DNA from: a virus
Lineage: Duplodnaviria > Caudoviricetes
Length of the DNA stretch: 61,784 nucleotides
IMG/VR virus record: IMGVR_UViG_3300029448_000029
Location: 1-61,784 of that record
Direction: 5' to 3' (one strand)
Positions 14,381 through 58,712 of this stretch are shown one piece after another. A program made the position numbers and the translations under genes. Each line of letters starts with the position of its first letter. Position 1 is the first letter of the stretch. The notes beneath the pieces are model-generated. The model had not been told where the DNA came from. It was given only the letters and a program-made list of their open reading frames with translations, and searched no databases.

Positions 14381-14388
14381 TATTTATA
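14381..14388 (-). promoter_or_regulatory. T4-type late promoter TATAAATA for gp20, located in a hairpin loop
   Basis: Exact consensus, flanked by inverted repeats that pair with the gp20 SD. Confidence 0.85.
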
Positions 14389-14405
14389 CGATCCTAATTC
14401 GAGGA

Positions 14406-14945: not shown

Positions 14946-14960
14946 GTGTTACTCCTTAGT

Positions 14961-20674: not shown

Positions 20675-21163
20675 TTATTGTTTTACTTGAACGGTGACTG
20701 GAATATTTTGAATTTCTGTGTATTCCATGTTTTCAATGTAATACTTTCTGGTAATTGGCTCTTCCGCTTCATCTGGCTCACTTGCTGTGTAATCAGTGAA
20801 TCCTGGCATACCTAATGGACAACTTAATTTTGGGTGATCTAATTTGCTGTATTCGTTACCTTCGGAAATAAGCCAAGTCGCTTCTCTATCCCCACAACCA
20901 CAACCACCACAGAAATGCTTCCCCACACTTTTGCTGTTTTGTAAGTGTTGGCATGGTGGTAAAACACCACCAACGTGCTGATTTCCGAAACAACTAATGA
21001 CTCGTAATTGCTTTGTTGCTTTTTCTACTTTTTTATTTCCAAATCCTCTGGATGCTAAGGCTGAGGCATAACTTTGAACCATACCAATACCTTTTTTGAG
21101 AGCATTCTTTTTTGTTTCATTTAGTTTTCTAAAACCACTATTTTTACAATTTTTACAGCCCAT
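20675..21163 (-). CDS. Small Cys-rich protein (CxxC, CGGCGC, CP); putative metal-binding or fibre-assembly factor
   Basis: MGCKNCK, RVISCFG, PPCQHL, HFCGGCGCGD, KLSCPLG; last gene of the fibre operon. Confidence 0.6.
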   Translation of the reverse strand: MGCKNCKNSGFRKLNETKKNALKKGIGMVQSYASALASRGFGNKKVEKATKQLRVISCFGNQHVGGVLPPCQHLQNSKSVGKHFCGGCGCGDREATWLISEGNEYSKLDHPKLSCPLGMPGFTDYTASEPDEAEEPITRKYYIENMEYTEIQNIPVTVQVKQ

Positions 21164-21172
21164 GATTATTCC

Positions 21173-27357: not shown

Positions 27358-27365
27358 TAATTACC

Positions 27366-31211: not shown

Positions 31212-31219
31212 ATATTACC

Positions 31220-39516: not shown

Positions 39517-41742
39517 TCAAGTTATTTTAGTGATTAGTAAATTGTTCATGTATCTAATCTCTTTATTTAGGTGATCTATGTAAAACACTGGAGCAAAGTT
39601 TTCCGTATCTTCTAAATTTACAGAGTCAACAAAATCTGCCCCAGAAAAGTTTATTTGAATTCTCGTTGGACCCAACGATTTGGATCTTTTTGGTTTGAAT
39701 GATGGATCTTGATTTGAATCTATTTCTCGTTGCAACATATTTAGTCCGACAACCGTTTTTCCAGAATTTAATTTTGGTATGGATAATGCAAAAGCACTTT
39801 CATTCGTAAGTGCATAACTTAAACGAACAGGGTATCTCAACCCATCTCCACCTCTCGTTTTATCGACAGAGTAATAGTCAGATTCTAAAAAAGTCACATT
39901 AATGTTGTTTGTATTCTCACTTACCGACAACGGATTTTGTTTCGTTATGGTTCTCTCTGTATAATTACCGACACCACCACCGAGAGCAATTCTATCTGGG
40001 AATAGAGGAGTCGCTCCGTTCCAGTGTCCTCCACCAACTCTCATGTTTTCGGACTGAGAGCCATTGTAATACGGCCAAGAGAATCCAACTTCACCTAAGA
40101 ATGAGAAACCCTCTCTGATATTTTGTTGGAACTCGTTGAGGTCTGATGAAGATATCGTTGAGCCATTATAGAAGCCAATGTAACGATAGTTTTTATTATC
40201 ACGTTGTTGATCTATAGAATCAATACCCGTTTTAAGATTTTCCTCACTTTGAACGTCGGTTTGTATTCCATAATCACCATGAAACTGTTGTCCGATAGCA
40301 TCAAGACCGTTTGGCATATAATACTCCACATCGTTTAAAACGTGTATGTGGAAACCGATAAGCCCTCTTTGTCTTTCCTCTACAGTTCTTGCCTCCTCTG
40401 GTGTCGGACTTGCATCTCTTGCCGCTTGCTTTGTTCGATACAAAGGATAGTAACCTAAAACATCAAAAGGTCCTGTCTCAGTAACTCCCAATGATTGCTG
40501 TTGCGATTCGTCCTCAACGATAACCGTGGGGGGAGAAAAACGATACGGGTGATCTTGAGGCAACTGAGAAGCAATTTGATATTTGTGTGCGAAATATCCC
40601 TCTAATTTGTTTCTAATTTCATCGTTTAAAACAAGCCTTGGACCGAGTTGATCAGTGTCACCCGCACAAACACTACTCCAATAATTTTCCTCCATAGCCT
40701 TTACATAAACAATTTCAGTAACAGCAGAAGATTGCGGTATAAATTGCCGAGTAATTTCCTCTGGATCTGGATCGTCCTCTGGACGTCCACTTTTTATTTT
40801 ATACGCACCTAAAGTTGTTTCAAATGGCGCACTCAATCCCGTTCTAACGTATGCAACGATATCCTCAAATGGTCGAACATCTAATTGTCTACCATCAATA
40901 AATGTTCCTATATGATTTGCTGGGACACTAATGCCGGTCGTTTCCGTTGATATTCTTAACATACCAGCACTAATTCTTGCTTTTGTTCCAAAATCAAGTT
41001 CGGGTATCGTGGAGTTTAATGTTGTTATAACTTTTTCATTAAAAATATTTCTAGCCCCAGCGGAAAAATACACACCAACAGAATTGTTGTCATAATTCAC
41101 ACCAAAATGAAGATGACCACCATCAAATTCAACTGTTTGACCACTTTCCCCCGAAGCAAGAGCCCCGTGTCCTAATACAACTCCAAAATTTTCCTCTTGA
41201 TTAATACTATCAACATAAGTCGATGGATTAACCGTTACAGTCATAACCAATACGTCTCTTAATCCACCAAATATTTGTGTGCCATCTGGACAATTATAAT
41301 AATTGCCTTCCTCGTATTGATTGTTACCGAAAATAACATTGGCAGCGCCAGGGGCACGAACTTGCTTTGTCATTGCAGTGCCATTTCCATTTTCATCAAA
41401 AACTAAAATTTTTGTGTTTGGCCTATTACCCACAGTCGCAGTTTTTACCTCGGGTGCGTTTGGATTATCAAGATTGCTCGACATTGGATAAATAGACTTT
41501 TTCACTTGAGCAAAATTTGCCCCAGGCACATAATTTACTCCATTTTCATCTTTGGAAAAATTAACTGTATTTTTAAGTGGAAAGGCAGGATCAGTGGTGG
41601 TTTCATATTCAGTTATGCTGTCTTGATTAACCCAATAAACTAAACTTTCATCCAAATCATTGGGTGTCCATAGTCGTGTAACTGGTGGTGCAGAAGGAGT
41701 CTCCGTTGCATCCTTTCCAAATTGTCTATCTTCGCATGACAT
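39517..41742 (-). CDS. Multidomain virion protein: lectin/LamG-like region, small His-containing domain, degenerate DUF4815-like C-terminus
   Basis: LWTPNDL..SLVYW ... RNKLEGYFAHKY...LP.DHPYR; GYYPLYRT...HIH...YYMPNG...HG; C-terminus paralogous to the gene at 41742-42689. Confidence 0.55.
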   Translation of the reverse strand: MSCEDRQFGKDATETPSAPPVTRLWTPNDLDESLVYWVNQDSITEYETTTDPAFPLKNTVNFSKDENGVNYVPGANFAQVKKSIYPMSSNLDNPNAPEVKTATVGNRPNTKILVFDENGNGTAMTKQVRAPGAANVIFGNNQYEEGNYYNCPDGTQIFGGLRDVLVMTVTVNPSTYVDSINQEENFGVVLGHGALASGESGQTVEFDGGHLHFGVNYDNNSVGVYFSAGARNIFNEKVITTLNSTIPELDFGTKARISAGMLRISTETTGISVPANHIGTFIDGRQLDVRPFEDIVAYVRTGLSAPFETTLGAYKIKSGRPEDDPDPEEITRQFIPQSSAVTEIVYVKAMEENYWSSVCAGDTDQLGPRLVLNDEIRNKLEGYFAHKYQIASQLPQDHPYRFSPPTVIVEDESQQQSLGVTETGPFDVLGYYPLYRTKQAARDASPTPEEARTVEERQRGLIGFHIHVLNDVEYYMPNGLDAIGQQFHGDYGIQTDVQSEENLKTGIDSIDQQRDNKNYRYIGFYNGSTISSSDLNEFQQNIREGFSFLGEVGFSWPYYNGSQSENMRVGGGHWNGATPLFPDRIALGGGVGNYTERTITKQNPLSVSENTNNINVTFLESDYYSVDKTRGGDGLRYPVRLSYALTNESAFALSIPKLNSGKTVVGLNMLQREIDSNQDPSFKPKRSKSLGPTRIQINFSGADFVDSVNLEDTENFAPVFYIDHLNKEIRYMNNLLITKIT

Positions 41743-44566: not shown

Positions 44567-45772
44567 TTAACTACAAGAGGGTAAACTTTGATTTGGACTA
44601 TCCGCAAGTTCTCGAAGAAAGAAGAAGTCACCAATATTTATATTGCGAAAAGCCGTCCCCTCAGTAATATCGACGGACCAGCCAGGATGATTAAATGTTG
44701 TGGCATTGTCTCCTGATCCGTCACGATCAAGATCAAATGTGCAACCCGATGGATAAGTTAATCCTTCTGTATCATTCAGACGATAGGGGATATAATTTCC
44801 CAGAATGGTTGTTTCGGATGATCCAAATTCACCCTCAAAATCTGCGGGTGGAACATAATCATCATTCTCCACATTAAATATAACTTGAATGCCTGCCGGG
44901 TGAGCGACCGTTTTATACGTTTCCTGTGCAGCATCGTCCAACTCAAACACTTGATCATCAATGTTATTTTTTACACGAAGAAGATATGCATAATCGTGAT
45001 AGAAACAGTTATCATGTAAAACTAATTCTCCGATTGCCGACTCTTGTAAATAAATTCCATCATCGGTATCTAAATTAGAATTACTTATCTCTGGAACACC
45101 ATCGTCTAATCTAATAACATTTCTTTTTGGCTCATAAATTTCTGTTTGTGCATCAATCTCAGGATATAGTTTTGAGAAGTAATATTGTGCGGCTTGCTTT
45201 GTGGTTTTCTTTGTGTAAAATTCTGCTCGGACATCCTTAATAAAATCAACTATCGAAGTTTCATCCGAACCAAAAACAGGAGTGAGGTGAGGATGATTTT
45301 CTAATCCTTCGGCATATTGAGAAACAACATTTGTCAATAAAGTTTTTCTAACATCGTCCTGATAGATAAACCCAGTTTCATCAATTCCCTCTGAATTTGG
45401 ATTTTTTGCTATTCTTTCAATGTCAATTAACTTCGATACGTCATCAATCGTGGTAAAATATTCAGAGCCATAGCCACCTAAAACAGATGGATTTGATGTG
45501 TAAAGCCACTCATAATATCCCTGAACAAAATAAATAAAATCGGTATAACCCAAAATAGAAAGATATTTGGGCAATCCTATATCGTAATAACCAACACCAG
45601 AACCTTCCGCTCGGGTGCTTCTCAGCGGGACATCAGGTCTTGGATAATTTGGAAATGGATCCGGAGGAGATAATCGTTTTGTGTCTGTAAATTGTGCCGG
45701 ATATTTAGATACAATTTCCCTATACCGATACTCTTTGTTTTTAGCCGTATTTTTTAATACTGAGCCGAACAT
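44567..45772 (-). CDS. gp7: Baseplate wedge initiator (compact)
   Basis: FVQGYYEWL, FIKDVR..FY.KK, LHDNCFYHDYAYLLR, VAHPAG; between gp6 and gp8. Confidence 0.75.
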   Translation of the reverse strand: MFGSVLKNTAKNKEYRYREIVSKYPAQFTDTKRLSPPDPFPNYPRPDVPLRSTRAEGSGVGYYDIGLPKYLSILGYTDFIYFVQGYYEWLYTSNPSVLGGYGSEYFTTIDDVSKLIDIERIAKNPNSEGIDETGFIYQDDVRKTLLTNVVSQYAEGLENHPHLTPVFGSDETSIVDFIKDVRAEFYTKKTTKQAAQYYFSKLYPEIDAQTEIYEPKRNVIRLDDGVPEISNSNLDTDDGIYLQESAIGELVLHDNCFYHDYAYLLRVKNNIDDQVFELDDAAQETYKTVAHPAGIQVIFNVENDDYVPPADFEGEFGSSETTILGNYIPYRLNDTEGLTYPSGCTFDLDRDGSGDNATTFNHPGWSVDITEGTAFRNINIGDFFFLRELADSPNQSLPSCS

Positions 45773-47658
45773 TACAGAGGTTTAACCTCCACATTTTGTT
45801 GAACAATATTTAAAACCATTTGTTGTTTTGCAGAGATATTATTGTTTTCTGGTTTGATGGTTAATTTTATTTCTTCATTACCAGTAACTCTAGGATTAAT
45901 TTTGATAAGTCCAGTTTTATGATTTATTTCACCAACACCGCCCTGCTCGACAACCTCAATAATGGTTCCGTTATCTCTACCAAGATAGAGTGGGGAAAAT
46001 CCATAAAGATTCGGTTCAAGCCCAGAGTCAACTATGAAAACATCATCCCTATCAAATCGAGGACTATAAAAACTACTTGATTTTAACCCTTGACCGATGC
46101 CTCCTCGTGTTATTTTATTTCTAAAAGAAATTTGATCAATAACGGCTGAGTTTACATCAAAATCAGTTTCCATTGTAACATCAGTGACAATATTTTCAGG
46201 AAGAATCGCGTTTGGCTCAGTTCCAGTAATAATTTCACTAAAACGTGATGTGATAAAATTATTATTAAATTTGGAACCACCATAATTTTGTTCAACGTTT
46301 TCTCTGATATCAAAAGATAATTGATCTTTATTTTTTTGTGTGTTTAATGAATTGAAAAATACAGTGTATGATAAATTCAGTTGGAATACTTGTGGTGGAA
46401 TATATTCTGGCATGATTGACAACGGTGATTTTTCTCTTAACAAGTCGAGAAGATCATTCGCTTGTTGAGGTCCAGTTGTAAGTAAAGAAACAAATACTCT
46501 ACCATAGTAAGGTGGATCCAATTCCTCACCACCAAACACACTAACGGTTCCCTCTGGACTAGATCCATCGGGAACAAAGTCTTTAATCAAACCAAGATAA
46601 TCATTTCTCGTAACAGCACGGTCCTGTGCGGCAAACCATTTTGGAGCAAAGAATCTGATTAACTCAGGATCAGGGCCGTCGGATCCAGCAAAACTCTCGG
46701 AAACTAATCGAACGCTTCCGTTTCCATCGGTGTAAGTAAATTTTCTAATCTCGTTTGCAACTTTTCCCGATGGAATAAGATAGGATATTCTAATCTTATC
46801 TGTCGGAAGTATTCTTCTACCAACATTGTCCGTTTCAAGATTTGGATTACCAACATCGACCAACTCTCCGTTTGCTCTCGCAGAGAAGATAATCTTCACA
46901 CCTTTATTTAATCTCTCAACGAAATAAATTGTGCTATCCTCGGAGATAGTAGAGTTTACGAATTCAGACTTCGAATATGTTGAAAAAGTAGAACCACCGT
47001 CTGTGCTAACTTCGAGTTCAATGGAGTCAATATCAATTCTGTCATCATTAAGAGTAAACGTTTGATTAGTGGTATTAACTAAATTCGTAATGTCTCGACG
47101 TAAGATTAAATCTTTTGCCTCGTATAGGATGACGCTCTCTGCCTTATTTGTCGTCGTATCTAATTCATAAGATTGTAAGGTATAAAAATTGTAGTTTGAT
47201 CCATCTGCATCTGTTCCAGTAAACTTGGAGTATTGTGGTATTCTTGCCGTCAAGTTTTCGACATCAATTGTTGCTCTAGCGGCAACTGATGCTCGAACAG
47301 TAAATCCAAGAGGTTTAGTTATAGATATCAAGGATTCCATTCGTTGTGCGGTGTCAAGATACAGTTCATTCGCAATCATGTTTGAATAGAAACCATAATA
47401 CATGGTGTTGTATGTGAGAGCGTCAATCAAAACATTTAAAGCGGATGAGGTAAAATCTAAATCATTAAGAGGACTATCTGTTCTCTGAAGATAGTTAATT
47501 ATACTTTGTTTGATTCCCTCATATGTTAAGTTACCGAGTCGAATAGAGGAATCCGACAAAATGGTTTCTTCGGCTGTTGCCGTTTCAGTGGAGTCACCAT
47601 TTCCATTTCTATAAACGTTTGAGCCTCCAGAACTTGTTTGTGTAGTATGGTATGACAT
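45772..47658 (-). CDS. gp6: Baseplate wedge subunit
   Basis: DLDFTSSALNVLIDAL.YNT.Y..FY.NM.ANELYLDTAQR, AQDRAVTRNDY, GGEELDPPYYGRVFVS. Confidence 0.92.
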   Translation of the reverse strand: MSYHTTQTSSGGSNVYRNGNGDSTETATAEETILSDSSIRLGNLTYEGIKQSIINYLQRTDSPLNDLDFTSSALNVLIDALTYNTMYYGFYSNMIANELYLDTAQRMESLISITKPLGFTVRASVAARATIDVENLTARIPQYSKFTGTDADGSNYNFYTLQSYELDTTTNKAESVILYEAKDLILRRDITNLVNTTNQTFTLNDDRIDIDSIELEVSTDGGSTFSTYSKSEFVNSTISEDSTIYFVERLNKGVKIIFSARANGELVDVGNPNLETDNVGRRILPTDKIRISYLIPSGKVANEIRKFTYTDGNGSVRLVSESFAGSDGPDPELIRFFAPKWFAAQDRAVTRNDYLGLIKDFVPDGSSPEGTVSVFGGEELDPPYYGRVFVSLLTTGPQQANDLLDLLREKSPLSIMPEYIPPQVFQLNLSYTVFFNSLNTQKNKDQLSFDIRENVEQNYGGSKFNNNFITSRFSEIITGTEPNAILPENIVTDVTMETDFDVNSAVIDQISFRNKITRGGIGQGLKSSSFYSPRFDRDDVFIVDSGLEPNLYGFSPLYLGRDNGTIIEVVEQGGVGEINHKTGLIKINPRVTGNEEIKLTIKPENNNISAKQQMVLNIVQQNVEVKPL

Positions 47659-48077
47659 TAGATAGCCCTTATAAGTTCAATTTGAGCAGACCTTGTCTGT
47701 GCCCCATCTGGCTCACCGACTAATCTGTAGTTTAAATTTAATATTACGTTATTTGAATCCATTCTAGACTCATCAATTTCAATTGATTGGAAAATTACTC
47801 TCGGTTCATATAAACTAAGAGCATACTCTATTCTTGTCGAAAGAGAAGCGACTGCCTCTGGAGTTAAGTTTTCAAAGAGAAACTCCGTGATCCCTCCACC
47901 AAATCCCGGCAGAAATGGCTTTTCGCCGGGTGTGGTTAACACTAAATTTTTTATCGCTTGCACGATTGAGTTTTGATCTCTTTTTATACCGATAGCGAAC
48001 GGGGAATCGTCTCCGACTCTTGTGAACGCAAGATCAAAATCAGTGAACCTATTTCTAGTTGGGATTTTTTCAGCCAT
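47658..48077 (-). CDS. gp25: Baseplate wedge subunit / sheath nucleator
   Basis: FTDFDLAF, AIKNLVLTTPGEKPF.P.FG.GI..FLFE, YEPRV. Confidence 0.93.
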   Translation of the reverse strand: MAEKIPTRNRFTDFDLAFTRVGDDSPFAIGIKRDQNSIVQAIKNLVLTTPGEKPFLPGFGGGITEFLFENLTPEAVASLSTRIEYALSLYEPRVIFQSIEIDESRMDSNNVILNLNYRLVGEPDGAQTRSAQIELIRAI

Positions 48078-48096: not shown

Positions 48097-51000
48097 TCAC
48101 TCCTGCGTGTAAATCGGATCAGTAATATCATTTGGATCTTGCGGGGTGCTATCTCTAAAGCAAGTAATACCCATCATGTGAGCCCCTAGACGAATGTTGT
48201 GTTTTATAGAGCCAATCAACCATCTACCAGCCGATCTCTTGCTCGGGTGTTTGTTATCTATGGGTTGTGGATTGACAACCTCGATAATCTGACCGGGACG
48301 AAGCGAGAGATCGCCGGGTAAAACACCAATTGCTTTTTGTGTCGTAAGTTGCATCATTTGTGCATCTCGACGAAGTGGTGCTTCATTTGGTGTGTCCCAG
48401 AAAGTCGCATATGTTCTTGATGCCTCTAAGTATTCTGCAAAGTTTTCTCCCTGCTCTGGACAATTGCAACTATTTGATGCGTTGGGATCAGAGTAAATAC
48501 AACCAAGGTAACTATCTCCGAGTTTCTCTTCAATCAAAGAACACTCGTCAATTTGAGATTCTAACTCTGAAATTTCTTGTGCCGTCGGTTCTTTAAAATC
48601 CTCTTCAGTCAAAATACCAAGAAGTCGCAAATATCGGTTCGTTAAACTTTCAATAAACGATTCCTCGTCCTCTCTCTCCTCCAAGTATCGCTCATAGTCT
48701 AGAACGTCTGGACGGAGTTCTTGCATTGGACAGTTGATATACGGATCATAGTCATCCTCTCCTGTATCTGGTGGTGCAATCACAGGACCATCTGGATTTG
48801 CACACTCATAGCGAGAGCATAAACTAGATTTGTTTCTTCGTGCGAATACAACAAACTGTCCGGAAAAGTTTCTCTCTAAGTCATGAATGTAATCGTCAAG
48901 TTTTACATCGTCTAATGTTGTGGCATTTTCTGGTGGTGTAAACACACCATACTCGGACTCACCGGAAATATCAAATTTCCAAACATATTCTTCAGGAGAA
49001 AATACATCAACATCCTCTGGCGGTGGGAAGTTTTCTTCATTGTAACTCCATAACATTCCAAAGTCCGAGACGAAGCCGTTTCTAACAAAACCAGATCCAC
49101 CCCAAGAATATCGTTGATATGCTCTTTGTTCAAGCAAAGAAAGTTTAGTCTCACCTTGATATGAATTTGTGTTTACAAATTGTTGATAATCACCATCGTG
49201 CCAAATCGAACTCTGGAAATGTTGTTCAAACAATACGTCTGGGCTGACACCACTCATCGGTGCTTTAAATGAGTGCCACGATGATGGAAGTCTCTCGCCG
49301 GGGACTGGTAAGTTATTGAATGAAACGTGGGCCCACTGATTCTCCTCCGTCACCGTTCGATAGAATACGTTTATCGGATCGTATGCCTCTGCCTCTACCG
49401 CTTTAATCGGATAAAGAACTGGCTTAGTTCCAGATTCATAAAGATGATCTTTCCATTTGTCTGTTCGCGTTACAGCAACATCAAACCCAAAGGGATCAAT
49501 ACCAATGACACTCATGTTATAATTCGCAGAATGTCTACCAAATGGTCCGGCAGTTAACTGAACAAGATAAGGTGCGTAATACTCTGTTCCTGCATCTCGA
49601 ATAAAACCATATGGGAATTCAGAGAGAGTGTCCTCTCCGATTGGAGTTTCAAACTCAACACGAATATAACTTTGAACCTCTGCAAAGAATCTTCTCGGGG
49701 ATTTAAATGACTCTCTCGGAGTATACCAGTTTGCTCTGTTCACATAATCATTTAGAAGATCACTACAATCTAAGGCATCACACGCATTTGTGTATTGTGG
49801 TCCGACGTTATATTCCAAATAACCATCGTCTCTATACAACGGTGATTTATTTCCTCCACTAATATAATCATCGGTATAACCAAGTTGACCACCACGACCA
49901 CCATTAATCGAGATACCAATAATTTCTATGGTGAGTTGTCCGTCCAAGTTAAAGTAAATTGTGCTTTCGGCTTCACCTCCATCCACATCAGCCGCGAGTC
50001 GTGCGAATTGATTAACCGAGCCTATCGGTTCATTTGGATCACCCTCGGGATATGAACACGATCCATCGTCCACTGTCGCATTGGGATTATAATTTAAAGC
50101 CGTCGGATCAGTGCAACCAGAAATTTCCTCTGGTTCGGGCGGCTCTGGTGAATCTGGATCTGGAATGTCTGGATCTGTTCCACCACCACCGGACTCCTCG
50201 CCGGGACTTGTCGTCATGGTTGACGCTCTCGTTGGTGTAATTTTTACGATTAACTCGCCGGGGAAACCAAAGTCTCTGTAGAAATGTGATCCATAGTTTG
50301 TTGATAAACCAAAACTACTCATACCAAGATTTTTTGCAAACGCCATTGGATCAAAGACATTATCACCCATCGTATTTGCACCAAGTTGCGTTCTTTGTGT
50401 TTGGTCGCTTGAGCCCCCAAAAGTCATAGGATCAGTATAATCCTCAACTTGACTAAAATAACGATCTTGATCAAGAACTGTTTGTCCCGTATAATAGTCA
50501 AATGGTGTATTGTGTCTGTATGCACTGTCAATCAAAGTTTTAACACCAAATGCCGTGTCATTTCTTTTTCCACCAACGTTGTTTCTGTTGCCCATAAATG
50601 GAGTGAAGAAAACATCGAATGGACTGTATCCCCATCGTCCATAATACCTTCCAACACCGCTTCTAAACGCTGCTGCGTCTGATATTGATACTCCGGGCCC
50701 GAGCAAATCTCCTCCAACGCCGGGTTTACTAGCCCAGTCCTCATATGCAAAGTCTGGTTGATCTGTGTTAATTCTATATCTTTGAACTAAGGGAACCAAA
50801 CCGCTTCCGGCCACGCTCTCCTCATATTGTTCTTGTTCACTTGGTAGTTGTGCAGCAAGATACGTTGGATCACGACCGGTAAAATTATTATTATTAGCGT
50901 TAAGTCCGGATAAGTTTTCTACATCAAAAATAGAATTTAAAGTTGTATTATTTATGCCACTTAATGCAAAGAAGCGAGGTTGCCCTTCCACAAACACATG

Positions 51001-53643
51001 AATAGGATTTCTTGTTTTATCATATGAATATTGATTAGCAAAAGAGGTGGGCATAACGAAAGCATTTTCGGTGGCGTATGAAATATCGCCGGGATCTATG
51101 CCACTTAAAAGAACATTCGGGTTTAGTAATCCATTGTAAGATCCTATGTCTGTATTAACACCCTGATCGTAATATGGGTGAGTCCCTGAAGTTCCACCCG
51201 CAAAATCAGCATACGAAACAAAATATTCATATGATGATTCAACATCGTCAACTAAAGATTCCTTAAGAGCAAAGACTTCATATCTACTGCCTCTGATATT
51301 TTTTCTTTTGATACTTTTTACATTTTCAAAACTTGTTTCTAATTCAGGTGTTTCCAGATATGGTTGTTTAGATTGCACAAATACTCGACGATTAACAAAT
51401 TCTTGCCAAGAATTTAACAGAACTTCTTTGTATGCCTCAACCAACTCTTGTTTTCTCGCATAAACAGAAATCGCTGACGGTCCCCAGTTGACAATACAAT
51501 CATCTGCTCTTGAAATATCACTGTAACCAAGATGTCGGAGACTTCTACTATCTCGTTCGACACTCACTCCTCTTGTGACTCTCGATCCCTCCAATAAACC
51601 ACTGTCTCCTTCTTCGACTTCATCCGTGCTTTCTAAAAGAGAATTTGATGCAGGAGTTTGTGGCTCAGAAAAACAACCAACACATGGGAAAAGATGAACA
51701 CCACCGGCTTGTGGTTGGTATATTCCATGAAAGGATGAATTGTTTTGTGGTGGTGTTGATTGCTCAAATTCAAAACCAAGCGGACTCGCTGCACTAGCCC
51801 AACCGTATGATCCATTATGCAATCCATTTGTGATATTTTGTTGGAAGTAAAAATTTTGATAACGCTGGTAAAGTCCACCCTCTTCTTCATCCTCTGGATT
51901 TCCTCTAATAAAATACGTTTCAAGAAAATCAATGTCTGCCCAGTAATTTGCAAATACTGGATATTGAGAGCAATAACTAATTTGCTCCTCAATACTTTGT
52001 TGCATTCTTTGAAGAGAGTAAAGTGTTGCATCAATTTGAAAAAGCGTGGATGTAAGTTCCTCTGGTTGTTTCAAATTATAGAGTTCACCCATTGTAATAT
52101 TGTAAAATGAATCCTCTTCATCAAACGGGTAACTTGAGATAAAGCCATTTTCATTCGCGTTCGGATTGTTGGGATCATAGTTTACCGTGTCGGTGAAAGT
52201 TCCGGCAGAGACAACATTGTAGTCAGAGGATGCACCCCCTGTGATGCCGTCGTCAAGACCTCGCAAACAACAAACCGAGCAACGGTAAGCACTCCACTTT
52301 TCTTTTAGGTCTTTTTTGAAAGCAAGTCTGGCTCTATTTTCCTCTAGTTCCTCTTTGATTTCAATAATTGATTTAATTGTTTTGACACTTGCATTTGTTT
52401 GATCAAACATCGGCTGCCACAACAAACTTTCATTATATGATTTGTTTGGCTCGGTGTGGTTTTTATCTGACAAGAATACTCTTGCATACTCGTCTTGCTC
52501 ATGCCGCAATCGAATCTTAGGATCATTGTAATGAGACTCGTCAAAGTAGCCGTGTAATGTATCGTATTTTTTAAGTGAATCTGAAACTTCAAATTCAAAG
52601 TCATCATCAATTAGAGGAAACTCTTCAATTCTTTCGATGTCGTCTTTCTCCTCTTGATAGGAATACTCAATTTTTTCAATCTTGTGTCCTTCATAAAAAG
52701 AAGTAAAATCCAAGAAAGGCTTCTCATAATCTGGACTCACTCTCTCATATGTTGAAAGGTATGCACCACCATTCATAAACTCTAAAGGAGTATATTCTTT
52801 TGCTACAATAAATGACGCAAATGAATCTGGCAAATTAAGATTACGATCAAAATCAACATAGTATTTTTTAGGTGTTTCAGTTTCTCTAATGATGCTGTTC
52901 ACTGATCTAAAGTGCCACCGATCTAAGTCCTGCCAAAACAAATAATTTGTTGCGTTTGTGTTGTTTTCGGGAACCGCTCTCTCTGAAACATAGTTCATCA
53001 GATTGATGGGTGACATTTGCTGAACCTGTTTTCTAAACGGGTATAGCATGTGATTCTTCTTTAGCCAAACAGAGTTACTTGTCGGCTCAATATCCATTTC
53101 CTCAGACGAATTTCCTGTGTCATTTGGATCAAAGAATTTTTCTGCTAAGTATTGAACAAGACCAGTTTCATCTTCATCTTCATCCGATGCCGCAATTTTT
53201 CCAACAAAGTTATTCGAGTCATCCTCAAAAATAGTATCAACCGTGTAATTTGAATAAACGTTTTCATAAGATCCAAACTCCACCAGCCACTGTTGAGTTC
53301 TAATGTTACCTCGCATTAAGTCATTAACTTCATCAACCAACGGGGTTACACCGTGAACATAAAGTTTAAGACTTTTGTTTGAGTTTTCAACGTTTGGTGT
53401 TTCTACATCCAACAAAAGTTGCTCACCGCCGACTAATGGAAGCATTTCACCGATTTGCGATGATTCCTCAAAAAGAAGAGTCCCCTCTAATCCTGCTTTA
53501 AAAATATCCTCCTCAATCGTCAACTCATTAAAGATTGTGACGGTTGAATCTGCATTTTTTAAATTTATTTCAACTCCATTTGGTTTTACAATCTTTGCTC
53601 GTAAAATATCAATTGGTGCTGGTGAGGTATCTCTATCGGGCAT
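48097..53643 (-). CDS. Baseplate hub protein (gp27/VgrG-N-like) with an insertion of about 1300 aa
   Basis: N-terminal ELTIEEDIF...LEG.L........EMLPLVGGE.L.L and YLFWQD..RWHFRSV; C-terminal PGDLSLRPGQIIEV...AGRWLI.SIKH...CFRDS are the hub motifs of the gene that follows gp53 in aquatic T4-like phages. Confidence 0.7.
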   Translation of the reverse strand: MPDRDTSPAPIDILRAKIVKPNGVEINLKNADSTVTIFNELTIEEDIFKAGLEGTLLFEESSQIGEMLPLVGGEQLLLDVETPNVENSNKSLKLYVHGVTPLVDEVNDLMRGNIRTQQWLVEFGSYENVYSNYTVDTIFEDDSNNFVGKIAASDEDEDETGLVQYLAEKFFDPNDTGNSSEEMDIEPTSNSVWLKKNHMLYPFRKQVQQMSPINLMNYVSERAVPENNTNATNYLFWQDLDRWHFRSVNSIIRETETPKKYYVDFDRNLNLPDSFASFIVAKEYTPLEFMNGGAYLSTYERVSPDYEKPFLDFTSFYEGHKIEKIEYSYQEEKDDIERIEEFPLIDDDFEFEVSDSLKKYDTLHGYFDESHYNDPKIRLRHEQDEYARVFLSDKNHTEPNKSYNESLLWQPMFDQTNASVKTIKSIIEIKEELEENRARLAFKKDLKEKWSAYRCSVCCLRGLDDGITGGASSDYNVVSAGTFTDTVNYDPNNPNANENGFISSYPFDEEDSFYNITMGELYNLKQPEELTSTLFQIDATLYSLQRMQQSIEEQISYCSQYPVFANYWADIDFLETYFIRGNPEDEEEGGLYQRYQNFYFQQNITNGLHNGSYGWASAASPLGFEFEQSTPPQNNSSFHGIYQPQAGGVHLFPCVGCFSEPQTPASNSLLESTDEVEEGDSGLLEGSRVTRGVSVERDSRSLRHLGYSDISRADDCIVNWGPSAISVYARKQELVEAYKEVLLNSWQEFVNRRVFVQSKQPYLETPELETSFENVKSIKRKNIRGSRYEVFALKESLVDDVESSYEYFVSYADFAGGTSGTHPYYDQGVNTDIGSYNGLLNPNVLLSGIDPGDISYATENAFVMPTSFANQYSYDKTRNPIHVFVEGQPRFFALSGINNTTLNSIFDVENLSGLNANNNNFTGRDPTYLAAQLPSEQEQYEESVAGSGLVPLVQRYRINTDQPDFAYEDWASKPGVGGDLLGPGVSISDAAAFRSGVGRYYGRWGYSPFDVFFTPFMGNRNNVGGKRNDTAFGVKTLIDSAYRHNTPFDYYTGQTVLDQDRYFSQVEDYTDPMTFGGSSDQTQRTQLGANTMGDNVFDPMAFAKNLGMSSFGLSTNYGSHFYRDFGFPGELIVKITPTRASTMTTSPGEESGGGGTDPDIPDPDSPEPPEPEEISGCTDPTALNYNPNATVDDGSCSYPEGDPNEPIGSVNQFARLAADVDGGEAESTIYFNLDGQLTIEIIGISINGGRGGQLGYTDDYISGGNKSPLYRDDGYLEYNVGPQYTNACDALDCSDLLNDYVNRANWYTPRESFKSPRRFFAEVQSYIRVEFETPIGEDTLSEFPYGFIRDAGTEYYAPYLVQLTAGPFGRHSANYNMSVIGIDPFGFDVAVTRTDKWKDHLYESGTKPVLYPIKAVEAEAYDPINVFYRTVTEENQWAHVSFNNLPVPGERLPSSWHSFKAPMSGVSPDVLFEQHFQSSIWHDGDYQQFVNTNSYQGETKLSLLEQRAYQRYSWGGSGFVRNGFVSDFGMLWSYNEENFPPPEDVDVFSPEEYVWKFDISGESEYGVFTPPENATTLDDVKLDDYIHDLERNFSGQFVVFARRNKSSLCSRYECANPDGPVIAPPDTGEDDYDPYINCPMQELRPDVLDYERYLEEREDEESFIESLTNRYLRLLGILTEEDFKEPTAQEISELESQIDECSLIEEKLGDSYLGCIYSDPNASNSCNCPEQGENFAEYLEASRTYATFWDTPNEAPLRRDAQMMQLTTQKAIGVLPGDLSLRPGQIIEVVNPQPIDNKHPSKRSAGRWLIGSIKHNIRLGAHMMGITCFRDSTPQDPNDITDPIYTQE

Positions 53644-53645
53644 TA

Positions 53646-54620
53646 TTAATTTCCATAACTATTTGAACTAAAGGAAAGAATAGATTTCGTTCCTTCCGAT
53701 GCTCTATCATTAAGAAGTCTTGTTATTTCATTCACAACTGGAGAAACAAACTCCTCCTTTAAAACTTTTATTTGTCTGGACGGAACTGAGTTTTGTGGGA
53801 GTTCATTAAAGTAAGTTTTTATTTCTATCCCAGACGCAATAAGATCGCTCTCCTCACCACGAAGGTATTTTCTAGCGATTGTATTAACATCTGTTTTCTT
53901 TCCCGTTGTAGTGTAACGAATGGTTCCTGTCGGGGAGTATGTTCCCGATGATGTCCAATCGGTCAACGGGCTAATAACTCTACCACTGTCTTTGAAGTAA
54001 ACGGGTGAGTCTCCTAACTTGTCAATTCTTATTGCGGGATGATAATCGTTTCCAGATGAATTCAGATTAGACGTTAGTGTTTCAAAACTTTGATCATCCC
54101 GTGATCTAAAAATATAAAATTCAACAGCATCTGCGCCACTCACGGTTGATCCTAACTGATCGTTACTGATGTTAAGAGTATTGTTAATCACTTCGATTTT
54201 ATTTAAATCGTGGTAGTAATTGTTGACGATGCCATACCTTTCTGTGTTAACGGCTCCACTTGTGTTGATAGCAATATAGTCCCCCGCTTTAACATCAATT
54301 TCATTATCGAAGTATATGGCAAATCCACTCTCATAACTCGTTGCGAAGTCTGCCGATTCGTCTGATCCAAAACGAGGCCATTCAGTATTAATGTCGATAA
54401 TATCGTTTGCGAGTAAAACCAACCAATACAAACGAACATCCCTATACACTTGATCTGCGATCTTTTCCGGTGTGTCACCATCATTTAAACTAAAGGTTTC
54501 AAACAATTCAACTGAATCTAATGTTGCTTTAGTAAATTTTACACTTCTAAAGATATCGACCATTTCGATACTTCTGGTGTCAAATCTGTATTCTATATTT
54601 GGAAAATTTTTAAAATACAT
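53646..54620 (-). CDS. gp53: Baseplate wedge component (LysM-like)
   Basis: MYFKNFPNIEY, DGDTPEKIADQVY.D..LYWLVLLANDIID...EWP, RQIKVLK. Confidence 0.9.
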   Translation of the reverse strand: MYFKNFPNIEYRFDTRSIEMVDIFRSVKFTKATLDSVELFETFSLNDGDTPEKIADQVYRDVRLYWLVLLANDIIDINTEWPRFGSDESADFATSYESGFAIYFDNEIDVKAGDYIAINTSGAVNTERYGIVNNYYHDLNKIEVINNTLNISNDQLGSTVSGADAVEFYIFRSRDDQSFETLTSNLNSSGNDYHPAIRIDKLGDSPVYFKDSGRVISPLTDWTSSGTYSPTGTIRYTTTGKKTDVNTIARKYLRGEESDLIASGIEIKTYFNELPQNSVPSRQIKVLKEEFVSPVVNEITRLLNDRASEGTKSILSFSSNSYGN

Positions 54621-55453
54621 TAGAGCGTATCCCTCGTAAGTGCAGCAGAGCGAGAAATAATATTTCCATCGAGTTGCAGGTTTGGTTCAAGTTCAGTATA
54701 GGTTAACGACAAGTTTGTAACCAATGGCTTTGGATCATCACCACCTCTGCCGACTCCACTGTCCTTGACTGAATAAACACCACCGCCACCTGTTCTGTTA
54801 ACCGTCACCGAAGTTAAAACGGACGTTTGAGGTTGTCCTGCCCACAATTTACCACTAGCAATTTTTCCACCCTCAGATGCAGTAACATACCACTGCCATA
54901 ATGGTGGATGTTTCATACTTTGATTCACTTTGTCTGGAAACGGATATGCGTTTGTTTCAAAACCATTGGCTATTTGTGATGCGATCTCTGCATCCACCTC
55001 ATTTTTTGCAACCATGCTAAAATTAAATTGAAAAGTTCTAAAATTTGCTTGGTTAAAAAGCATTTCCGATCTATCTTGATCAACGAGACCGATGTTACCA
55101 CCAACAGTTAAGTCACGAATAAAAGATGGTGAAAGGGCTCCACCAATAAGAGGAAGTTGAGTTGCAAAAGAGAGTAAACTTCTACCACCACCACCCTGAC
55201 CCGTGATCGTTCCTAATAAAGCCTCAATAAATGGTGTTTCGTTTGTCTTTCCTCGATCAAAATCTATATTCGTTGCAGATGTCATATTCATTGGGACGGG
55301 GAGAGTATATTCCGCAATGGTATCGCTACCAGAGTAGAAGTTACCGCCACCAGAAGTTCTTGCTTCTCTTCTGTTGCTATAATTTTTTGCAACAAACGTG
55401 ATGAATAACTTAATATCTCTAAATCCTGTTGCGGGGAATCTAATTCCAGCCAT
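54620..55453 (-). CDS. gp48: Baseplate tail-tube cap
   Basis: LPVP, EMLF....FRTFQFNF.M.AKN..DA, VLTSVTVN, LSLTYTELE; divergent from gp4 and upstream of gp53. Confidence 0.75.
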   Translation of the reverse strand: MAGIRFPATGFRDIKLFITFVAKNYSNRREARTSGGGNFYSGSDTIAEYTLPVPMNMTSATNIDFDRGKTNETPFIEALLGTITGQGGGGRSLLSFATQLPLIGGALSPSFIRDLTVGGNIGLVDQDRSEMLFNQANFRTFQFNFSMVAKNEVDAEIASQIANGFETNAYPFPDKVNQSMKHPPLWQWYVTASEGGKIASGKLWAGQPQTSVLTSVTVNRTGGGGVYSVKDSGVGRGGDDPKPLVTNLSLTYTELEPNLQLDGNIISRSAALTRDTL

Positions 55454-57190: not shown

Positions 57191-57373
57191 TTGCAGACAA
57201 TGATAAAGACAAATTCTGATTTATTTTTACACTTTAAAATGACGTATAGTGAATTAGAATCAATGATTCCGTGGGAAAGAGACATTTATATCGAATTGAT
57301 TAAGCAACATATAGAGGAAGAAAACAAAAAAATAAGAGAGAGAAACAATGCAAGAAGATCAGGCATTCCATAA
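57191..57373 (+). CDS. gp51: Baseplate hub assembly catalyst (probably made as a gp26-gp51 frameshift fusion)
   Basis: HFKMTYSELESMIPWERDIYI.L..HIEEEN motif; frame continues upstream as RLSLCHVSL to the slippery site. Confidence 0.85.
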   Translation: MQTMIKTNSDLFLHFKMTYSELESMIPWERDIYIELIKQHIEEENKKIRERNNARRSGIP

Positions 57374-58712
57374 AATAATCTCCGGTATGGGCAAGAAGGG
57401 TAAACGAGCGAAGAAACGCAACGTTAAACCTTTGTTGCTGTCTAGCGTTTTGTTTAACCCACCGAAATTAAATAGTTTACCTGAACAGCAAAAGCAAATT
57501 GATATACCAGATGAAAGTGCTAAATCCGTTTCAGATGAGTTGAAAGGATTTAAGAAGATCATTGAAAAAATGGTCAAGAATATCATATCAAATACAAACA
57601 ATACAACGACTCAAAACAAAACCTCAGTTGAAAATGTAAGTTCCATTCAAAATGTCTTTAACGCAAACAGCACTACAAACAAACGCTCTGGAAAAAATAT
57701 CTCTAATGTGAGAAATATAACATCCTCCAATAATGATGTTTCCTCTGTGAAAAACTTTTCATCAATGAGCAACGGTGTTTCAGCAACAAAAAATGTGTCG
57801 CTTTCAAATAAAAATATCTTAGTCACCACACGCAAGTCTGGTTTGACAAAAATAGAAAACGAAAATAACAAAAGTGAAAATAATGTAAAACTTCTTCAAA
57901 ACGGAGACTTAACTAACGTATTGAACGAGAGCGTTGTCAGAAATATTTCTAACACCAACACAATAACAAACAGAAAGTATGCTCGTCCGATTCAGGCAAA
58001 AGCAAAAGGTGGCTGGATATCTGGTCCACTGAAGGGATATCCTGTTTCACTTGACGGTGAAAAAATTGATTTCATAGGACACGGAACAGAGTTTGTCGCA
58101 AGAAAACCCTCTGGTTCGTTTGTGATTCCAGTGGACACACCTGAAACAAGAAAAGATCCCAGTCTTATGGAAAGAAGGGTTAAGGAAGCGAAGCGTGCTG
58201 GTTTTGATTCATTGGGGTTAAATAAAAAAATTAGTTTACCAAAAATGAAACCCACCAAAATATCTGCAAAAGAACTTCCTCGCTTACAAAATTTACAACA
58301 AAAAGCAGTGGGTGGATTTTTGTCGGGTATCGCAGATAGTGTTGGTGGAATGGTTGAATCCAGTCCGATTGGTATGTTGGCAGGACAGGCAAGCGGATTA
58401 CTCGAAAAAGTTACTGGTGTTAATCCAATCGAAAATATTAAAAGCGTAATCAACCCAACTGAAACGAGAGATTCTAGAATAGAACAACAGATGATAGAAA
58501 ATAATATGGTAAAAACTGAAACAGAAAAGATATTAGATGAGAGAAGAGAATCAAATAACAATCAACCTATCCCGTTACCAATACCAATGAACACCGGAGG
58601 TGGTGGACAAAAATCGAGCAGCCCAATGATTGCCGCTGGTGGAGAGAGTAATTTCTCTAGGGTGGCAAAGGAACAAACAATGTTCCCTGCTTGGAGAAGA
58701 AATATGGGATAA
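57348..58712 (+). CDS. Putative baseplate hub / tail length determinator (gp29-like)
   Basis: Position after gp26-gp51; Asn/Ser-rich low-complexity region; GGWISGPLKGYPVSL..FIGHGTEFV motif; amphipathic Gly-rich segment and Pro-rich tail. Confidence 0.5.
   Translation: MQEDQAFHKIISGMGKKGKRAKKRNVKPLLLSSVLFNPPKLNSLPEQQKQIDIPDESAKSVSDELKGFKKIIEKMVKNIISNTNNTTTQNKTSVENVSSIQNVFNANSTTNKRSGKNISNVRNITSSNNDVSSVKNFSSMSNGVSATKNVSLSNKNILVTTRKSGLTKIENENNKSENNVKLLQNGDLTNVLNESVVRNISNTNTITNRKYARPIQAKAKGGWISGPLKGYPVSLDGEKIDFIGHGTEFVARKPSGSFVIPVDTPETRKDPSLMERRVKEAKRAGFDSLGLNKKISLPKMKPTKISAKELPRLQNLQQKAVGGFLSGIADSVGGMVESSPIGMLAGQASGLLEKVTGVNPIENIKSVINPTETRDSRIEQQMIENNMVKTETEKILDERRESNNNQPIPLPIPMNTGGGGQKSSSPMIAAGGESNFSRVAKEQTMFPAWRRNMG

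What the first reader, a model, noticed from the sequence alone, without database searches (positions are those of the whole stretch)
48097..53643. Giant 1848-aa hub protein and no gp5 spike gene between hub and gp25
Seen: gp27-like N- and C-terminal motifs bracket about 1300 aa (roughly 48400-52300) of unrecognised Tyr/Gly/Asp-rich sequence with coiled segments, Cys clusters (RCSVCC, YECANP..INCP, GCIY..SCNCP) and a GCTD repeat; gp25 follows after only 19 bp. Known: T4-like hubs are about 400-500 aa and are normally followed by gp5 and PAAR. No gp5 OB-fold gene is recognisable anywhere in the window. Inference: the insertion may replace or enclose the central spike, giving a new cell-puncturing architecture.
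Basis: partly seen in the sequence, partly recalled or inferred. Interest (0 to 1): 0.75.

Follow-up and report, generated by a model that had tools for sequence, protein, structure and literature searches.

The report
Giant baseplate hub replacing the spike
An uncultured T4-like marine phage carries about 1400 extra cysteine-knotted residues inside its baseplate hub protein, and it and its many relatives show no trace of the usual gp5 needle or PAAR tip, so the extra module probably forms the tail tip.

Summary
Window 48097-53643 (-) is one 1848-aa ORF. Residues 1-~350 and ~1750-1848 are the two halves of a gp27-like hub (PHROG 350; Foldseek to T4 gp27, E 5e-5). About 1400 residues sit at a single insertion point. 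gp25 starts 19 nt downstream.

The window is only ~34% of a genome, so its own lack of gp5 proves nothing. Comparative data are stronger. A gp5 profile built from Kyanoviridae-like phages hit 6 of 6 short-hub control genomes. It hit 0 of 25 fused-hub records (up to 87% complete) and 0 of 20 split-hub records. PAAR gave 4 of 6, 0 of 25 and 0 of 20.

A related architecture was also found: HubN, a hypervariable middle protein (0-2745 aa) and HubC as separate genes in the same slot. The break points lie next to the conserved Cys clusters.

Best reading (about 0.55): the inserted module is the axial tip complex that stands in for gp5-PAAR.

The folds of the insertion are poor (pLDDT ~55), and no profile links it to gp5. 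What it looks like therefore remains unknown.

Verdict: a new variant of a known kind, widespread and uncultured.

The parts
48097..53643 (-). Whole 1848-aa hub ORF (P0001), including the stop codon
52594..53643 (-). Hub N-part, aa 1-~350. It has a gp27-like fold (tube-like barrel plus insertion domain). Residues 8-265 are the confidently modelled part.
   Evidence: Foldseek to T4 gp27 2z6b_D/1k28_D, E 5e-5, prob 1.0. VIA to 9f4a_BE, Z 12.4, 200 aligned, rmsd 3.9. Short hubs align here.
51949..52431 (-). N-side conserved base of the insertion, aa 405-565. It holds a long helix (420-457) ending in the invariant Cys triad C455/C458/C459, a conserved beta-rich stretch, and a second helix (531-560).
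   Evidence: conservation; secondary structure; HubN genes of the split form end their homology here
51484..51966 (-). Variable region 1, aa 560-720
   Evidence: occupancy 0.36-0.55, identity 0.06-0.13 across 42 homologues
51124..51486 (-). Conserved block B, aa 720-840 (helix 717-751, then the SIKRK.IRGSRYE motif)
49744..51126 (-). Variable region 2, aa 840-1300. It is lineage-specific and includes a Pro/Asp linker and the single GCTD mini-motif (aa 1171-1198, nt 50050-50133).
   Evidence: occupancy 0.14-0.53; the motif is shared at 56-74% identity with multi-repeat proteins that carry PF18962
49444..49686 (-). Conserved block C, aa 1320-1400. This is the most conserved part of the fused family (60% mean identity).
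   Evidence: There is a weak VIA likeness to fibre/tailspike tip knobs and H-type lectins (6cxb_A, Z 6.9, 71 aligned, rmsd 3.2). Foldseek does not back it.
48394..48846 (-). C-side conserved Cys-rich base, aa 1600-1750. It holds C1609, C1614, C1638, C1701, C1715, C1726 and C1728, with CxCP knuckles and helices.
   Evidence: invariant columns; this is the head of the separate HubC proteins in the split form
48100..48396 (-). Hub C-part, aa 1750-1848. This is the last beta-barrel of the gp27-like fold.
   Evidence: PHROG 350 profile 340-432. VIA to the C-terminal barrels of pyocin R2 hub 6u5h_C (Z 6.3), P1 9vzk_1 (Z 5.9) and Mu gp44 1wru_A (Z 5.0).
47658..48077 (-). gp25 wedge gene, 19 nt after the hub stop
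45772..47658 (-). gp6 wedge gene
   Evidence: phrog_219, E 4e-83; PF21379
53646..54620 (-). gp53 wedge gene, directly upstream of the hub
   Evidence: PF11246; phrog_232
54620..55453 (-). gp48-like tail tube cap gene
   Evidence: phrog_230, E 2.4e-14

Best explanation
P0001 is the central baseplate hub (gp27 homologue, PHROG 350) of an uncultured T4-like marine myovirus.

Shown:
- The hub fold is interrupted once, between about residue 350 and 1750, by a module of about 1400 residues.
- The clade that carries this module lacks detectable gp5 and PAAR. The module may be fused into the hub, as here, or split into HubN, middle and HubC genes.
- The two ends of the module next to the hub are conserved and Cys-rich.
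- The middle is hypervariable. It can be a separate protein or be absent.

Inferred:
- The three copies of the module meet on the three-fold axis under the hub ring.
- The helix plus Cys triad after HubN, and the CxCP/4-Cys region before HubC, form a metal- or disulfide-locked socket.
- The middle part hangs from this socket as the host-facing tip (plug plus central spike or fibre). It does the job that gp5-gp5.4 does in T4.
- On sheath contraction this tip is what the tube drives into the envelope.
For: 1. Hub identity.
- PHROG 350, E 7e-31.
- Foldseek to T4 gp27, E 5e-5; VIA Z 12.4 for residues 8-265.
- C-terminal barrel Z 5-6.3 to several hubs.
- Gene order gp48-gp53-hub-gp25-gp6.

2. A single insertion point.

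3. The slot is the gp5 slot. Short-hub relatives have gp48-gp53-hub(412-483 aa)-gp5(-PAAR)-gp25-gp6. In 78 of 83 IMG/VR loci of the fused form, gp25 is the next recognisable gene after the hub. Four loci end inside the hub, and in one gp6 comes next.

4. Absence of the canonical spike.
- gp5 profile A5: 6 of 6 controls (E 4e-15 to 2e-305), 0 of 25 fused-hub records and 0 of 20 split-hub records.
- PF06714: 0 of 24 fused-hub records, 2 of 2 and then 4 of 5 controls. The fifth control also lacks the hub.
- PAAR: 4 of 6, 0 of 25 and 0 of 20.
- G006 (157 kb, 87% complete) is collinear with the entire window and holds the full structural module. tblastn with Melnitz and BUCT-ZZ01 gp5 found nothing in it.

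5. Modularity.
- All 48 split-form loci show HubC followed by gp25.
- 38 of them show both HubN (650-813 aa where the ORF is complete; four are cut at the contig end; profile up to ~460) and HubC (230-361 aa, profile from ~1208).
- 34 of those 38 have middle ORFs of 264-2745 aa, and 4 have none.
- Middle proteins of the main family share about 500 N-terminal residues and differ after that. This is the pattern expected of a fibre or spike.

6. Size. Fused hubs are 1457-2016 aa. Hub plus gp5 comes to 1351 aa in BUCT-ZZ01 and 1496 aa in Melnitz.

7. Weak co-fold support for three copies of 405-565 with three copies of 1600-1760.
- ipSAE 0.32 against a best control of 0.00.
- The mark was reached by 58 of 80 solved complexes and 2 of 110 mismatched pairs.
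- At 0.60 or under, only 7 of those 80 solved complexes and both passing mismatches reached it.
- The runs agree in at least 46% of contacts, and partner pLDDT is at least 52.
Against: - No record of the clade is complete. The best are 87%, 70% and 68%, all linear fragments, so a spike gene in an unsampled part is not excluded.
- Absence rests on sequence profiles. PF06714 scored only 21-31 bits on three cyanophage controls, so a very divergent OB fold could be missed.
- The insertion shows no profile-profile similarity to gp5 (probability 0.08%) and no Pfam, NCBIfam or PDB sequence match. Nothing positively marks it as a spike.
- The AF2 models are poor: mean pLDDT 56.6 and 53.8, with most of the insertion under 50. 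Foldseek on the C-terminal model found nothing (best E 0.23).
- Whether the insertion point faces the axis or the distal side was not established.
- No lytic domain was found in it.
- Several downstream baseplate ORFs have no family, for example 39517-41742 (741 aa). One of them could be an unrelated spike.
- Many loci are near-duplicates from different samples, so the counts are not independent.
Confidence: 0.55

Rival explanations
1. The hub carries a peripheral decoration (adhesion or receptor-binding domains displayed around the hub). A canonical or strongly diverged spike is encoded elsewhere, or by one of the unassigned baseplate ORFs.
For: - Hubs with large insertions exist in phages. 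One example is the 878-aa cyanophage A-1(L) chain 8kea_A, whose hub domains span residues 1-659 (listing only).
- Block C has a weak likeness to lectin-like fibre knobs.
- Variable regions and a GCTD motif shared with surface proteins fit adhesion.
- All records are incomplete.
- Unassigned ORFs exist in the module.
Against: - 0 of 45 records have gp5 or PAAR, while 6 of 6 and 4 of 6 controls do. The records all contain the baseplate module, where the controls keep gp5.
- G006 holds the whole structural module without one.
- The conserved parts of the insertion are the hub-proximal Cys/helix regions, not the putative binding domains.
- Long conserved helices suit a three-fold bundle, which can only lie on the axis (the geometry is inference).
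Confidence: 0.25
2. The middle module is cargo rather than a spike. It would be a protein tethered to the hub and delivered into the envelope or periplasm on contraction, like the effector domains of evolved VgrG proteins. The conserved HubN tail and HubC head alone would form the minimal tip.
For: - The middle can be a separate gene of any size or be missing altogether. L239-L241 and L244 have HubN and HubC only.
- Middle families are unrelated to each other and to the fused middle.
- The HubN tail (185-279 aa) and HubC head are always kept.
Against: - No enzymatic or toxin-like domain was found in 10 middle proteins or in P0001.
- A conserved N-terminal anchor with a variable distal part is more typical of fibres.
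- Within the fused family, blocks B and C of the middle are strongly conserved.
Confidence: 0.13
3. Artefact or selfish insertion: a chimeric assembly, or an intein or homing element, interrupts an ordinary hub gene.
For: The hub homology is interrupted at one point. Split forms exist.
Against: - The same architecture occurs in 191 IMG/VR stretches and in 20 protein clusters at 25-61% identity, collinear over the full length.
- There are no intein or endonuclease families.
- The reading frame is open over 5.5 kb.
- Conserved blocks lie inside the insertion.
Confidence: 0.02

Closest known systems
T4 cell-puncturing device (gp27)3-(gp5)3-gp5.4
   Same: The N-part folds like gp27 (Foldseek 1k28_D/2z6b_D, E 5e-5). 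The baseplate neighbours gp48, gp53, gp25 and gp6 are present.
   Different: There is no gp5 OB, lysozyme or Gp5_trimer_C, and no PAAR. About 1400 residues are inserted inside the hub fold. That genes 27 and 5 are not adjacent in T4 itself is recalled, not tested.
Short PHROG-350 hubs of Kyanoviridae-like phages (Melnitz, BUCT-ZZ01, HTVC008M, Mosig, S-SSM7, S-BM3, S-SKS1)
   Same: Same sequence family at both ends. Same slot after gp48-gp53.
   Different: They are about 410-483 aa with about 30 residues where P0001 has about 1400. They are accompanied by a gp5 OB gene.
VgrG and Mu/P2-type hub and spike proteins of contractile injection systems
   Same: The hub and the presumed tip lie on one polypeptide. 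The hub domains match structurally (3cdd_A Z 9.1, 1wru_A Z 8.5, 2p5z_X Z 7.5).
   Different: In VgrG the OB and beta-helix follow the complete hub module (recalled). Here the extra module lies inside the hub fold and has no Phage_base_V match.
Giant tail-tip hub proteins of siphophages (lambda gpJ, T5 pb3, T1 and Chi tip proteins)
   Same: These are large gp27-like proteins that close the tube and carry the central fibre (recalled). Their hub barrels appear among the weaker matches to the C-part (8iyk_J Z 5.3, 7zhj_b Z 4.6, 9l9p_S Z 4.8).
   Different: They belong to non-contractile tails. Their extensions are mainly C-terminal, and no sequence relation was found.
Split-hub form found here (HubN / middle protein / HubC)
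   Same: HubN matches P0001 1-~460 and HubC matches ~1608-1843. Same slot and same lack of gp5 and PAAR.
   Different: There are three (or two) genes instead of one. The middle proteins are unrelated to P0001 460-1608.

Membership tests
gp27-like baseplate hub (PHROG 350) | Profile match to the family | tested here: met
   phrog_350, E 7.4e-31 in 3 stretches. Melnitz's 483-aa hub matches the full profile at E 3e-85.
gp27-like baseplate hub (PHROG 350) | gp27 fold of the N-terminal domains | tested here: met
   Foldseek to T4 gp27, E 5e-5, prob 1.0. VIA Z 12.4 to 9f4a_BE, and Z 8-10 to the P1, Mu, MuSo2 and pyocin hubs over residues 8-265. pLDDT there is 70-85.
gp27-like baseplate hub (PHROG 350) | Second (C-terminal) tube-like barrel | tested here: met
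   Residues 1749-1834 match the last ~80 residues of several hubs at Z 5.0-6.3. Scores are moderate; pLDDT is about 80 in this part.
gp27-like baseplate hub (PHROG 350) | Contiguous hub of about 390-480 aa | tested here: not met
   1848 aa, with about 1400 aa between the two hub parts.
gp27-like baseplate hub (PHROG 350) | Trimer forming a pseudo-hexameric ring under the tube | not testable with these tools
   Only monomer folds of two fragments were possible.
gp5 tail lysozyme / central spike | N-terminal OB domain (PF06714) or a match to a lineage-tuned gp5 profile | tested here: not met
   No match in the window or in 44 related records, against 6 of 6 controls. hhalign of the hub family against the gp5 family gives probability 0.08%.
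gp5 tail lysozyme / central spike | Lytic domain (GH24 or chitinase-like, as in relatives) | tested here: not met
   No Pfam family in P0001 above noise. Relatives' gp5 carry PF00959 or PF00182.
gp5 tail lysozyme / central spike | Trimeric C-terminal beta-helix | tested here: inconclusive
   PF22178 gave no match in 15 records, but only sub-threshold matches in 2 of 6 controls. A monomer AF2 model cannot show an intertwined helix.
PAAR / gp5.4 tip | PAAR motif domain (PF05488) | tested here: not met
   0 of 25 and 0 of 20 records, against 4 of 6 controls.
VgrG-type hub-spike fusion | Complete hub module followed by the gpV/gp5 OB (PF04717) and a beta-helix | tested here: not met
   The extra module lies inside the hub fold. 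PF04717 gave no match in 15 records. The power of this model is low: 2 of 6 controls, both sub-threshold.

The most novel reading that the evidence does not exclude
A large, wholly uncultured branch of T4-like aquatic myoviruses has discarded the gp5-PAAR beta-helical needle. In its place it builds the tail tip from a non-homologous, cysteine- or metal-knotted module threaded through the hub. The hub ring itself can be assembled from two polypeptides (HubN and HubC). These clamp an exchangeable, hypervariable central protein that acts as both plug and central receptor-binding spike. Fusion and fission of the three parts have happened repeatedly.
Probability: 0.35. Interest if true: 0.85.

Novelty: new variant of a known kind. 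Interest (0 to 1): 0.77.

Why it matters
The gp27-gp5-PAAR arrangement is treated as the common tip of contractile injection machines (recalled). Pelagimyophage work describes gp5 as present though divergent in both pelagimyophages and cyanomyophages (PMC7029224, passages read).

A clade seen in about 190 IMG/VR stretches lacks gp5 and PAAR and has a different, modular tip. This would point to a second solution for breaching the envelope. It would also point to a new host-range determinant on the tail axis.

The finding gives an annotation for hundreds of 'hypothetical' 1500-2000-aa ORFs and for the HubN, middle and HubC gene trios. It also defines targets for expression and cryo-EM.

Five full-text searches turned up no description of such a hub. 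Paper supplements could not be seen.

Tried and rejected
- Sequence searches of P0001: Pfam, NCBIfam and PDB gave only noise.
- tblastn of P0001 against 50,697 phage records found only N-terminal matches to 5 records, all with short hubs.
- tblastn of the C-terminal 559 aa found one weak hit, to the Mosig short hub. HubC protein P0195 found none.
- hhalign of the giant family against gp5 and against the split-form middle family gave no relation. A profile of that middle family found nothing in the PDB.
- Pfam found nothing in 13 split-form proteins: ten middle ORFs plus L186's HubN, middle and HubC ORFs.
- The ESM Atlas search of residues 1290-1620 returned only unnamed clusters.
- Foldseek on the C-terminal model gave a best E of 0.23. 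The lectin or fibre-knob likeness seen by VIA (Z 5-6.9) is therefore only a lead.
- A scan of GTDB species genomes for the family found no relative, so there is no host hint from there.
- No tRNA genes are in the window.
- The 454-aa ORF at 57348-58712 carries 'endolysin' PHROG labels and was checked as a possible lytic partner. It has no Pfam, NCBIfam or PDB support.
- BLAST of the window's baseplate and fibre ORFs against Melnitz and BUCT-ZZ01 was too insensitive to say which have counterparts there.
- An intein or mobile-element reading was rejected for lack of any such domain and because of conservation.
Full report
**What is there.**
Window 48097-53643 (-) is a single open frame of 1848 codons. 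It lies in a T4-type baseplate operon on the minus strand:
- a gp48-like tube cap (54620-55453);
- gp53 (53646-54620);
- the giant ORF;
- gp25 (47658-48077);
- gp6 (45772-47658);
- further wedge proteins.

The hub stop is followed by 19 nt containing GGAGG and then the gp25 ATG.

On the other strand, upstream, lie gp4, a tube-like protein, a gp26-like 'T4_baseplate' protein and a 454-aa unknown.

The rest of the window encodes portal, prohead scaffold, major capsid, terminase, sheath, neck proteins and three 1281-1610-aa ORFs. The capsid protein is about 58-59% identical to those of cyanomyoviruses, pelagimyophages and the methylophage Melnitz alike.

The window is the whole of a linear IMG/VR record rated 34% complete.

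**Hub identity.**
PHROG 350 ('tail protein') matches at E 7e-31 in three stretches. The C-terminal residues 1750-1837 align to profile positions 340-432 of 436.

The 483-aa protein that follows gp53 in Melnitz is a full-length member of that family. It aligns to P0001 16-259 and 1775-1832.

An HMM of 43 giant homologues aligns the short hubs of BUCT-ZZ01 and Melnitz in two pieces:
- short-hub residues 8-293 to profile positions 14-355;
- short-hub residues 323-408 to profile positions 1324-1403.

About 30 short-hub residues therefore stand where P0001 has about 1400.

An AF2 model of residues 1-860 (43-row alignment, mean pLDDT 56.6) is fair only for 1-255 (pLDDT 70-85) and for three long helices. 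That N-terminal part matches:
- T4 gp27 (Foldseek E 5e-5, prob 1.0);
- a Klebsiella phage hub, 9f4a_BE (VIA Z 12.4, 200 residues, rmsd 3.9);
- the P1, Mu, MuSo2, pyocin and CIS hubs at Z 8-10.

In the model of 1290-1848 (mean pLDDT 53.8), residues 1749-1834 match the last barrel of pyocin R2, P1, Mu and VgrG-type hubs at Z 5-6.3.

**Anatomy of the insertion.**
Across 42 full-length homologues, the conserved parts are:
- 1-560;
- 720-840;
- about 1300-1480 (1320-1400 at 60% mean identity);
- 1555-1640;
- 1680-1848.

Regions 560-720, 840-1300 and 1640-1680 are variable in sequence and length.

Eighteen of the 19 cysteines lie in the insertion. C455, C458, C459, C1609, C1614, C1638, C1701, C1715, C1726 and C1728 are invariant in the 20-sequence alignment.

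The GCTD motif occurs once (1171-1198). It resembles a unit that is repeated many times in unrelated large proteins, several of which carry the T9SS sorting domain PF18962.

The insertion has no significant match in Pfam, NCBIfam or the PDB sequence set; the only PHROG match (350) covers the hub parts.

Block C, together with a strand at 1595-1602, shows a weak VIA likeness to the tip knobs of R-pyocin fibres and tailspikes and to H-type lectins (Z 5.3-6.9, about 60-73 residues). Foldseek does not confirm it.

**How common it is.**
- The protein database lists 20 relatives of 1180-2167 aa.
- IMG/VR holds 191 stretches that encode a relative.
- In 83 loci examined, hubs with both ends present measure 1457-2016 aa. 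A gp25 homologue is the next recognisable gene in 78 loci. Four loci end inside the hub, and one has gp6 next.
- A profile search of 1.84 billion representatives found 759 proteins at E <= 1e-3.
- No cultured phage in the 50,697-record collection has the fused form.

**Is there a gp5 or PAAR elsewhere?**
In the cultured short-hub relatives the order is gp48-gp53-hub-gp5. In BUCT-ZZ01 the 939-aa gp5 follows directly. In Melnitz a block of small genes intervenes, followed by a gp5 OB protein, a second gp5 part, a PAAR-like ORF, gp25 and gp6. Hub and gp5 OB are also adjacent in S-SSM7, S-BM3, HTVC008M, S-SKS1 and Mosig.

I built a gp5 profile from 25 relatives of the BUCT-ZZ01 protein and searched whole records in six frames.

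| Test | Short-hub controls | Fused-hub records | Split-hub records |
|---|---|---|---|
| Custom gp5 profile A5 | 6 of 6 (E 4e-15 to 2e-305) | 0 of 25, window included | 0 of 20 |
| PF06714 (Gp5_OB) | 2 of 2, then 4 of 5 | 0 of 24 | not run |
| PAAR (PF05488) | 4 of 6 | 0 of 25 | 0 of 20 |
| PF04717 and PF22178 | 2 of 6 each, sub-threshold | 0 of 15, fused and split pooled | pooled with fused |

Further points:
- The one PF06714 control without a match (a 139.7-kb single-cell record) also lacks the hub.
- phrog_430 found nothing in the 11 fused-hub records searched; as a genome search it was not run on a control, though the model does match Melnitz's gp5 OB protein at E 1.3e-44.
- PF04717 and PF22178 are weak tests, given their poor showing on the controls.
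- The most complete fused-hub records are 87%, 70%, 60% and 54% complete. The most complete split-hub record is 68% complete.
- The 157-kb record G006 (87%) is collinear with the entire window and contains the complete structural module. Its 1457-aa hub lies directly before gp25. tblastn with the Melnitz and BUCT-ZZ01 gp5 proteins finds nothing in it.
- All these records are fragments that include the baseplate region. That is where the controls keep gp5, so the negative result has some weight. It remains a sequence-level negative on incomplete genomes.

**The split form.**
The representative search showed many 230-310-aa proteins that match only the last ~250 residues of P0001. Their loci show a second architecture in the same slot:

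gp48 | gp53 | HubN | middle ORF(s) | HubC | gp25 | gp6

- HubN is 650-813 aa where the ORF is complete; four are cut at the contig end. Its homology to P0001 ends at about 460, just after the Cys triad, and is followed by a 185-279-aa tail.
- The middle ORFs are 264-2745 aa.
- HubC is 230-361 aa. Its homology begins at about 1608, just before the CANP Cys motif.
- PHROG 350 is divided between HubN and HubC.

Of 48 loci examined:
- all have HubC followed by gp25;
- 38 show both HubN and HubC;
- 34 of those have middle ORFs, and 4 have none.

Many loci are near-duplicates from different samples.

The middle proteins fall into two main families. In the larger family (30 loci) about 500 N-terminal, extremely Cys-rich residues are shared, and the rest varies from nothing to more than 2000 residues. 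They match neither the giant-hub profile nor Pfam nor the PDB.

In a FastTree of the HubN region, fused and split forms are interleaved. The tree has 67 distinct sequences, is rooted on two short hubs, and was read without support values. The interleaving suggests repeated fusion or fission.

**Interpretation.**

Shown:
- This is a gp27-type hub with one huge insertion.
- The clade lacks detectable gp5 and PAAR.
- The hub-proximal ends of the insertion are the conserved, Cys-rich parts.
- The middle is exchangeable and can be a separate protein.

Inferred:
- Three-fold association of the three insertion copies can only happen on the hub axis.
- The conserved helix, Cys triad and CxCP-rich region therefore most likely form a locked socket beneath the ring.
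- The middle module is most likely the axial, host-facing tip that plugs the tube and meets the envelope first.

Co-folding three copies of 405-565 with three copies of 1600-1760 gave only weak support:
- ipSAE 0.32 against a best control of 0.00;
- the mark was reached by 58 of 80 solved complexes and 2 of 110 mismatched pairs;
- at 0.60 or under, only 7 of those 80 and both passing mismatches reached it;
- at least 46% of contacts are shared between runs, and partner pLDDT is at least 52.

I put the replacement reading at about 0.55. The alternatives are:
- a peripheral decoration with an undetected spike elsewhere, about 0.25;
- hub-tethered cargo, about 0.13;
- an artefact or selfish insert, about 0.02.

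**Novelty.**
Hubs fused to spikes (VgrG) and giant hub proteins carrying a central fibre (siphophage tips) are known (recalled). This is therefore a new variant, not a new kind.

What is unusual is the combination:
- the extra module lies inside the hub fold;
- the hub can be split into two chains;
- gp5 and PAAR are absent across a large T4-like clade.

Five full-text searches found nothing like it. I read passages of PMC3037559 and PMC7029224. The latter describes gp5 as present but divergent in pelagimyophages and cyanomyophages. All other papers were seen only as search listings. Supplements were not available.

Noticed in passing
window 50050-50133 (-), aa 1171-1198 of P0001: A single CTDP..NYNP..DDGSC mini-motif flanked by a Pro/Asp-rich linker. 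The same unit is repeated many times, at 56-74% identity, in unrelated 1000-2100-aa proteins. Four of the six (P0022-P0025) carry the T9SS sorting domain PF18962. This is a possible hint of a Bacteroidota-associated origin or host.
   Followed up: partly
window 57348-58712 (+): A 454-aa ORF after gp26, in the position where relatives have a large unknown (Melnitz 742 aa). It hits several long PHROGs labelled 'endolysin' over residues 194-309 but has no Pfam, NCBIfam or PDB match. G006 has a 501-aa ORF in the same place with no BLAST similarity. It may be the tape-measure or gp29 analogue.
   Followed up: partly
window 22930-36052 (-): Three consecutive giant ORFs (1475, 1281 and 1610 aa). Their G006 counterparts are 2052, 1920 and 1016 aa, at about 28-30% identity over parts only. 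They are presumably fibres and evolve fast.
   Followed up: no
window 14961-16181 (-) and G006 89397-92669: The window has one short sheath-like ORF (406 aa; only residues 216-397 match sheath profiles) and one tube-like ORF. G006 has two adjacent paralogues of each (441 and 446 aa; 191 and 183 aa).
   Followed up: no
L187-L225, middle ORFs of split-hub loci (e.g. L187 7786-9948): The shared ~500-aa N-terminal region of the main middle-protein family is extraordinarily rich in invariant Cys and Trp. It starts M.T.RTCCC.CGD.PC. It has no match in Pfam or the PDB.
   Followed up: partly
L239-L241, L244: Two-gene hubs (HubN 745-787 aa, HubC 312-361 aa) with no middle ORF. In the unsupported FastTree, one of them (L240) is the most basal extended hub.
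   Followed up: partly
KC465899.1 (HTVC008M) 21115-22416: The short hub match in this record contains one in-frame TGA.
   Followed up: no
L064 (IMG/VR locus), hub 9986-15094: This is the only fused-hub locus where no gp25 homologue was found by BLAST. A gp6 homologue starts 28 nt after the hub.
   Followed up: no
L013 and L034 (IMG/VR loci): The hub region is broken into shorter ORFs (729 and 834 aa called), with long gaps to the neighbouring genes. Possible frameshifts or assembly errors.
   Followed up: no
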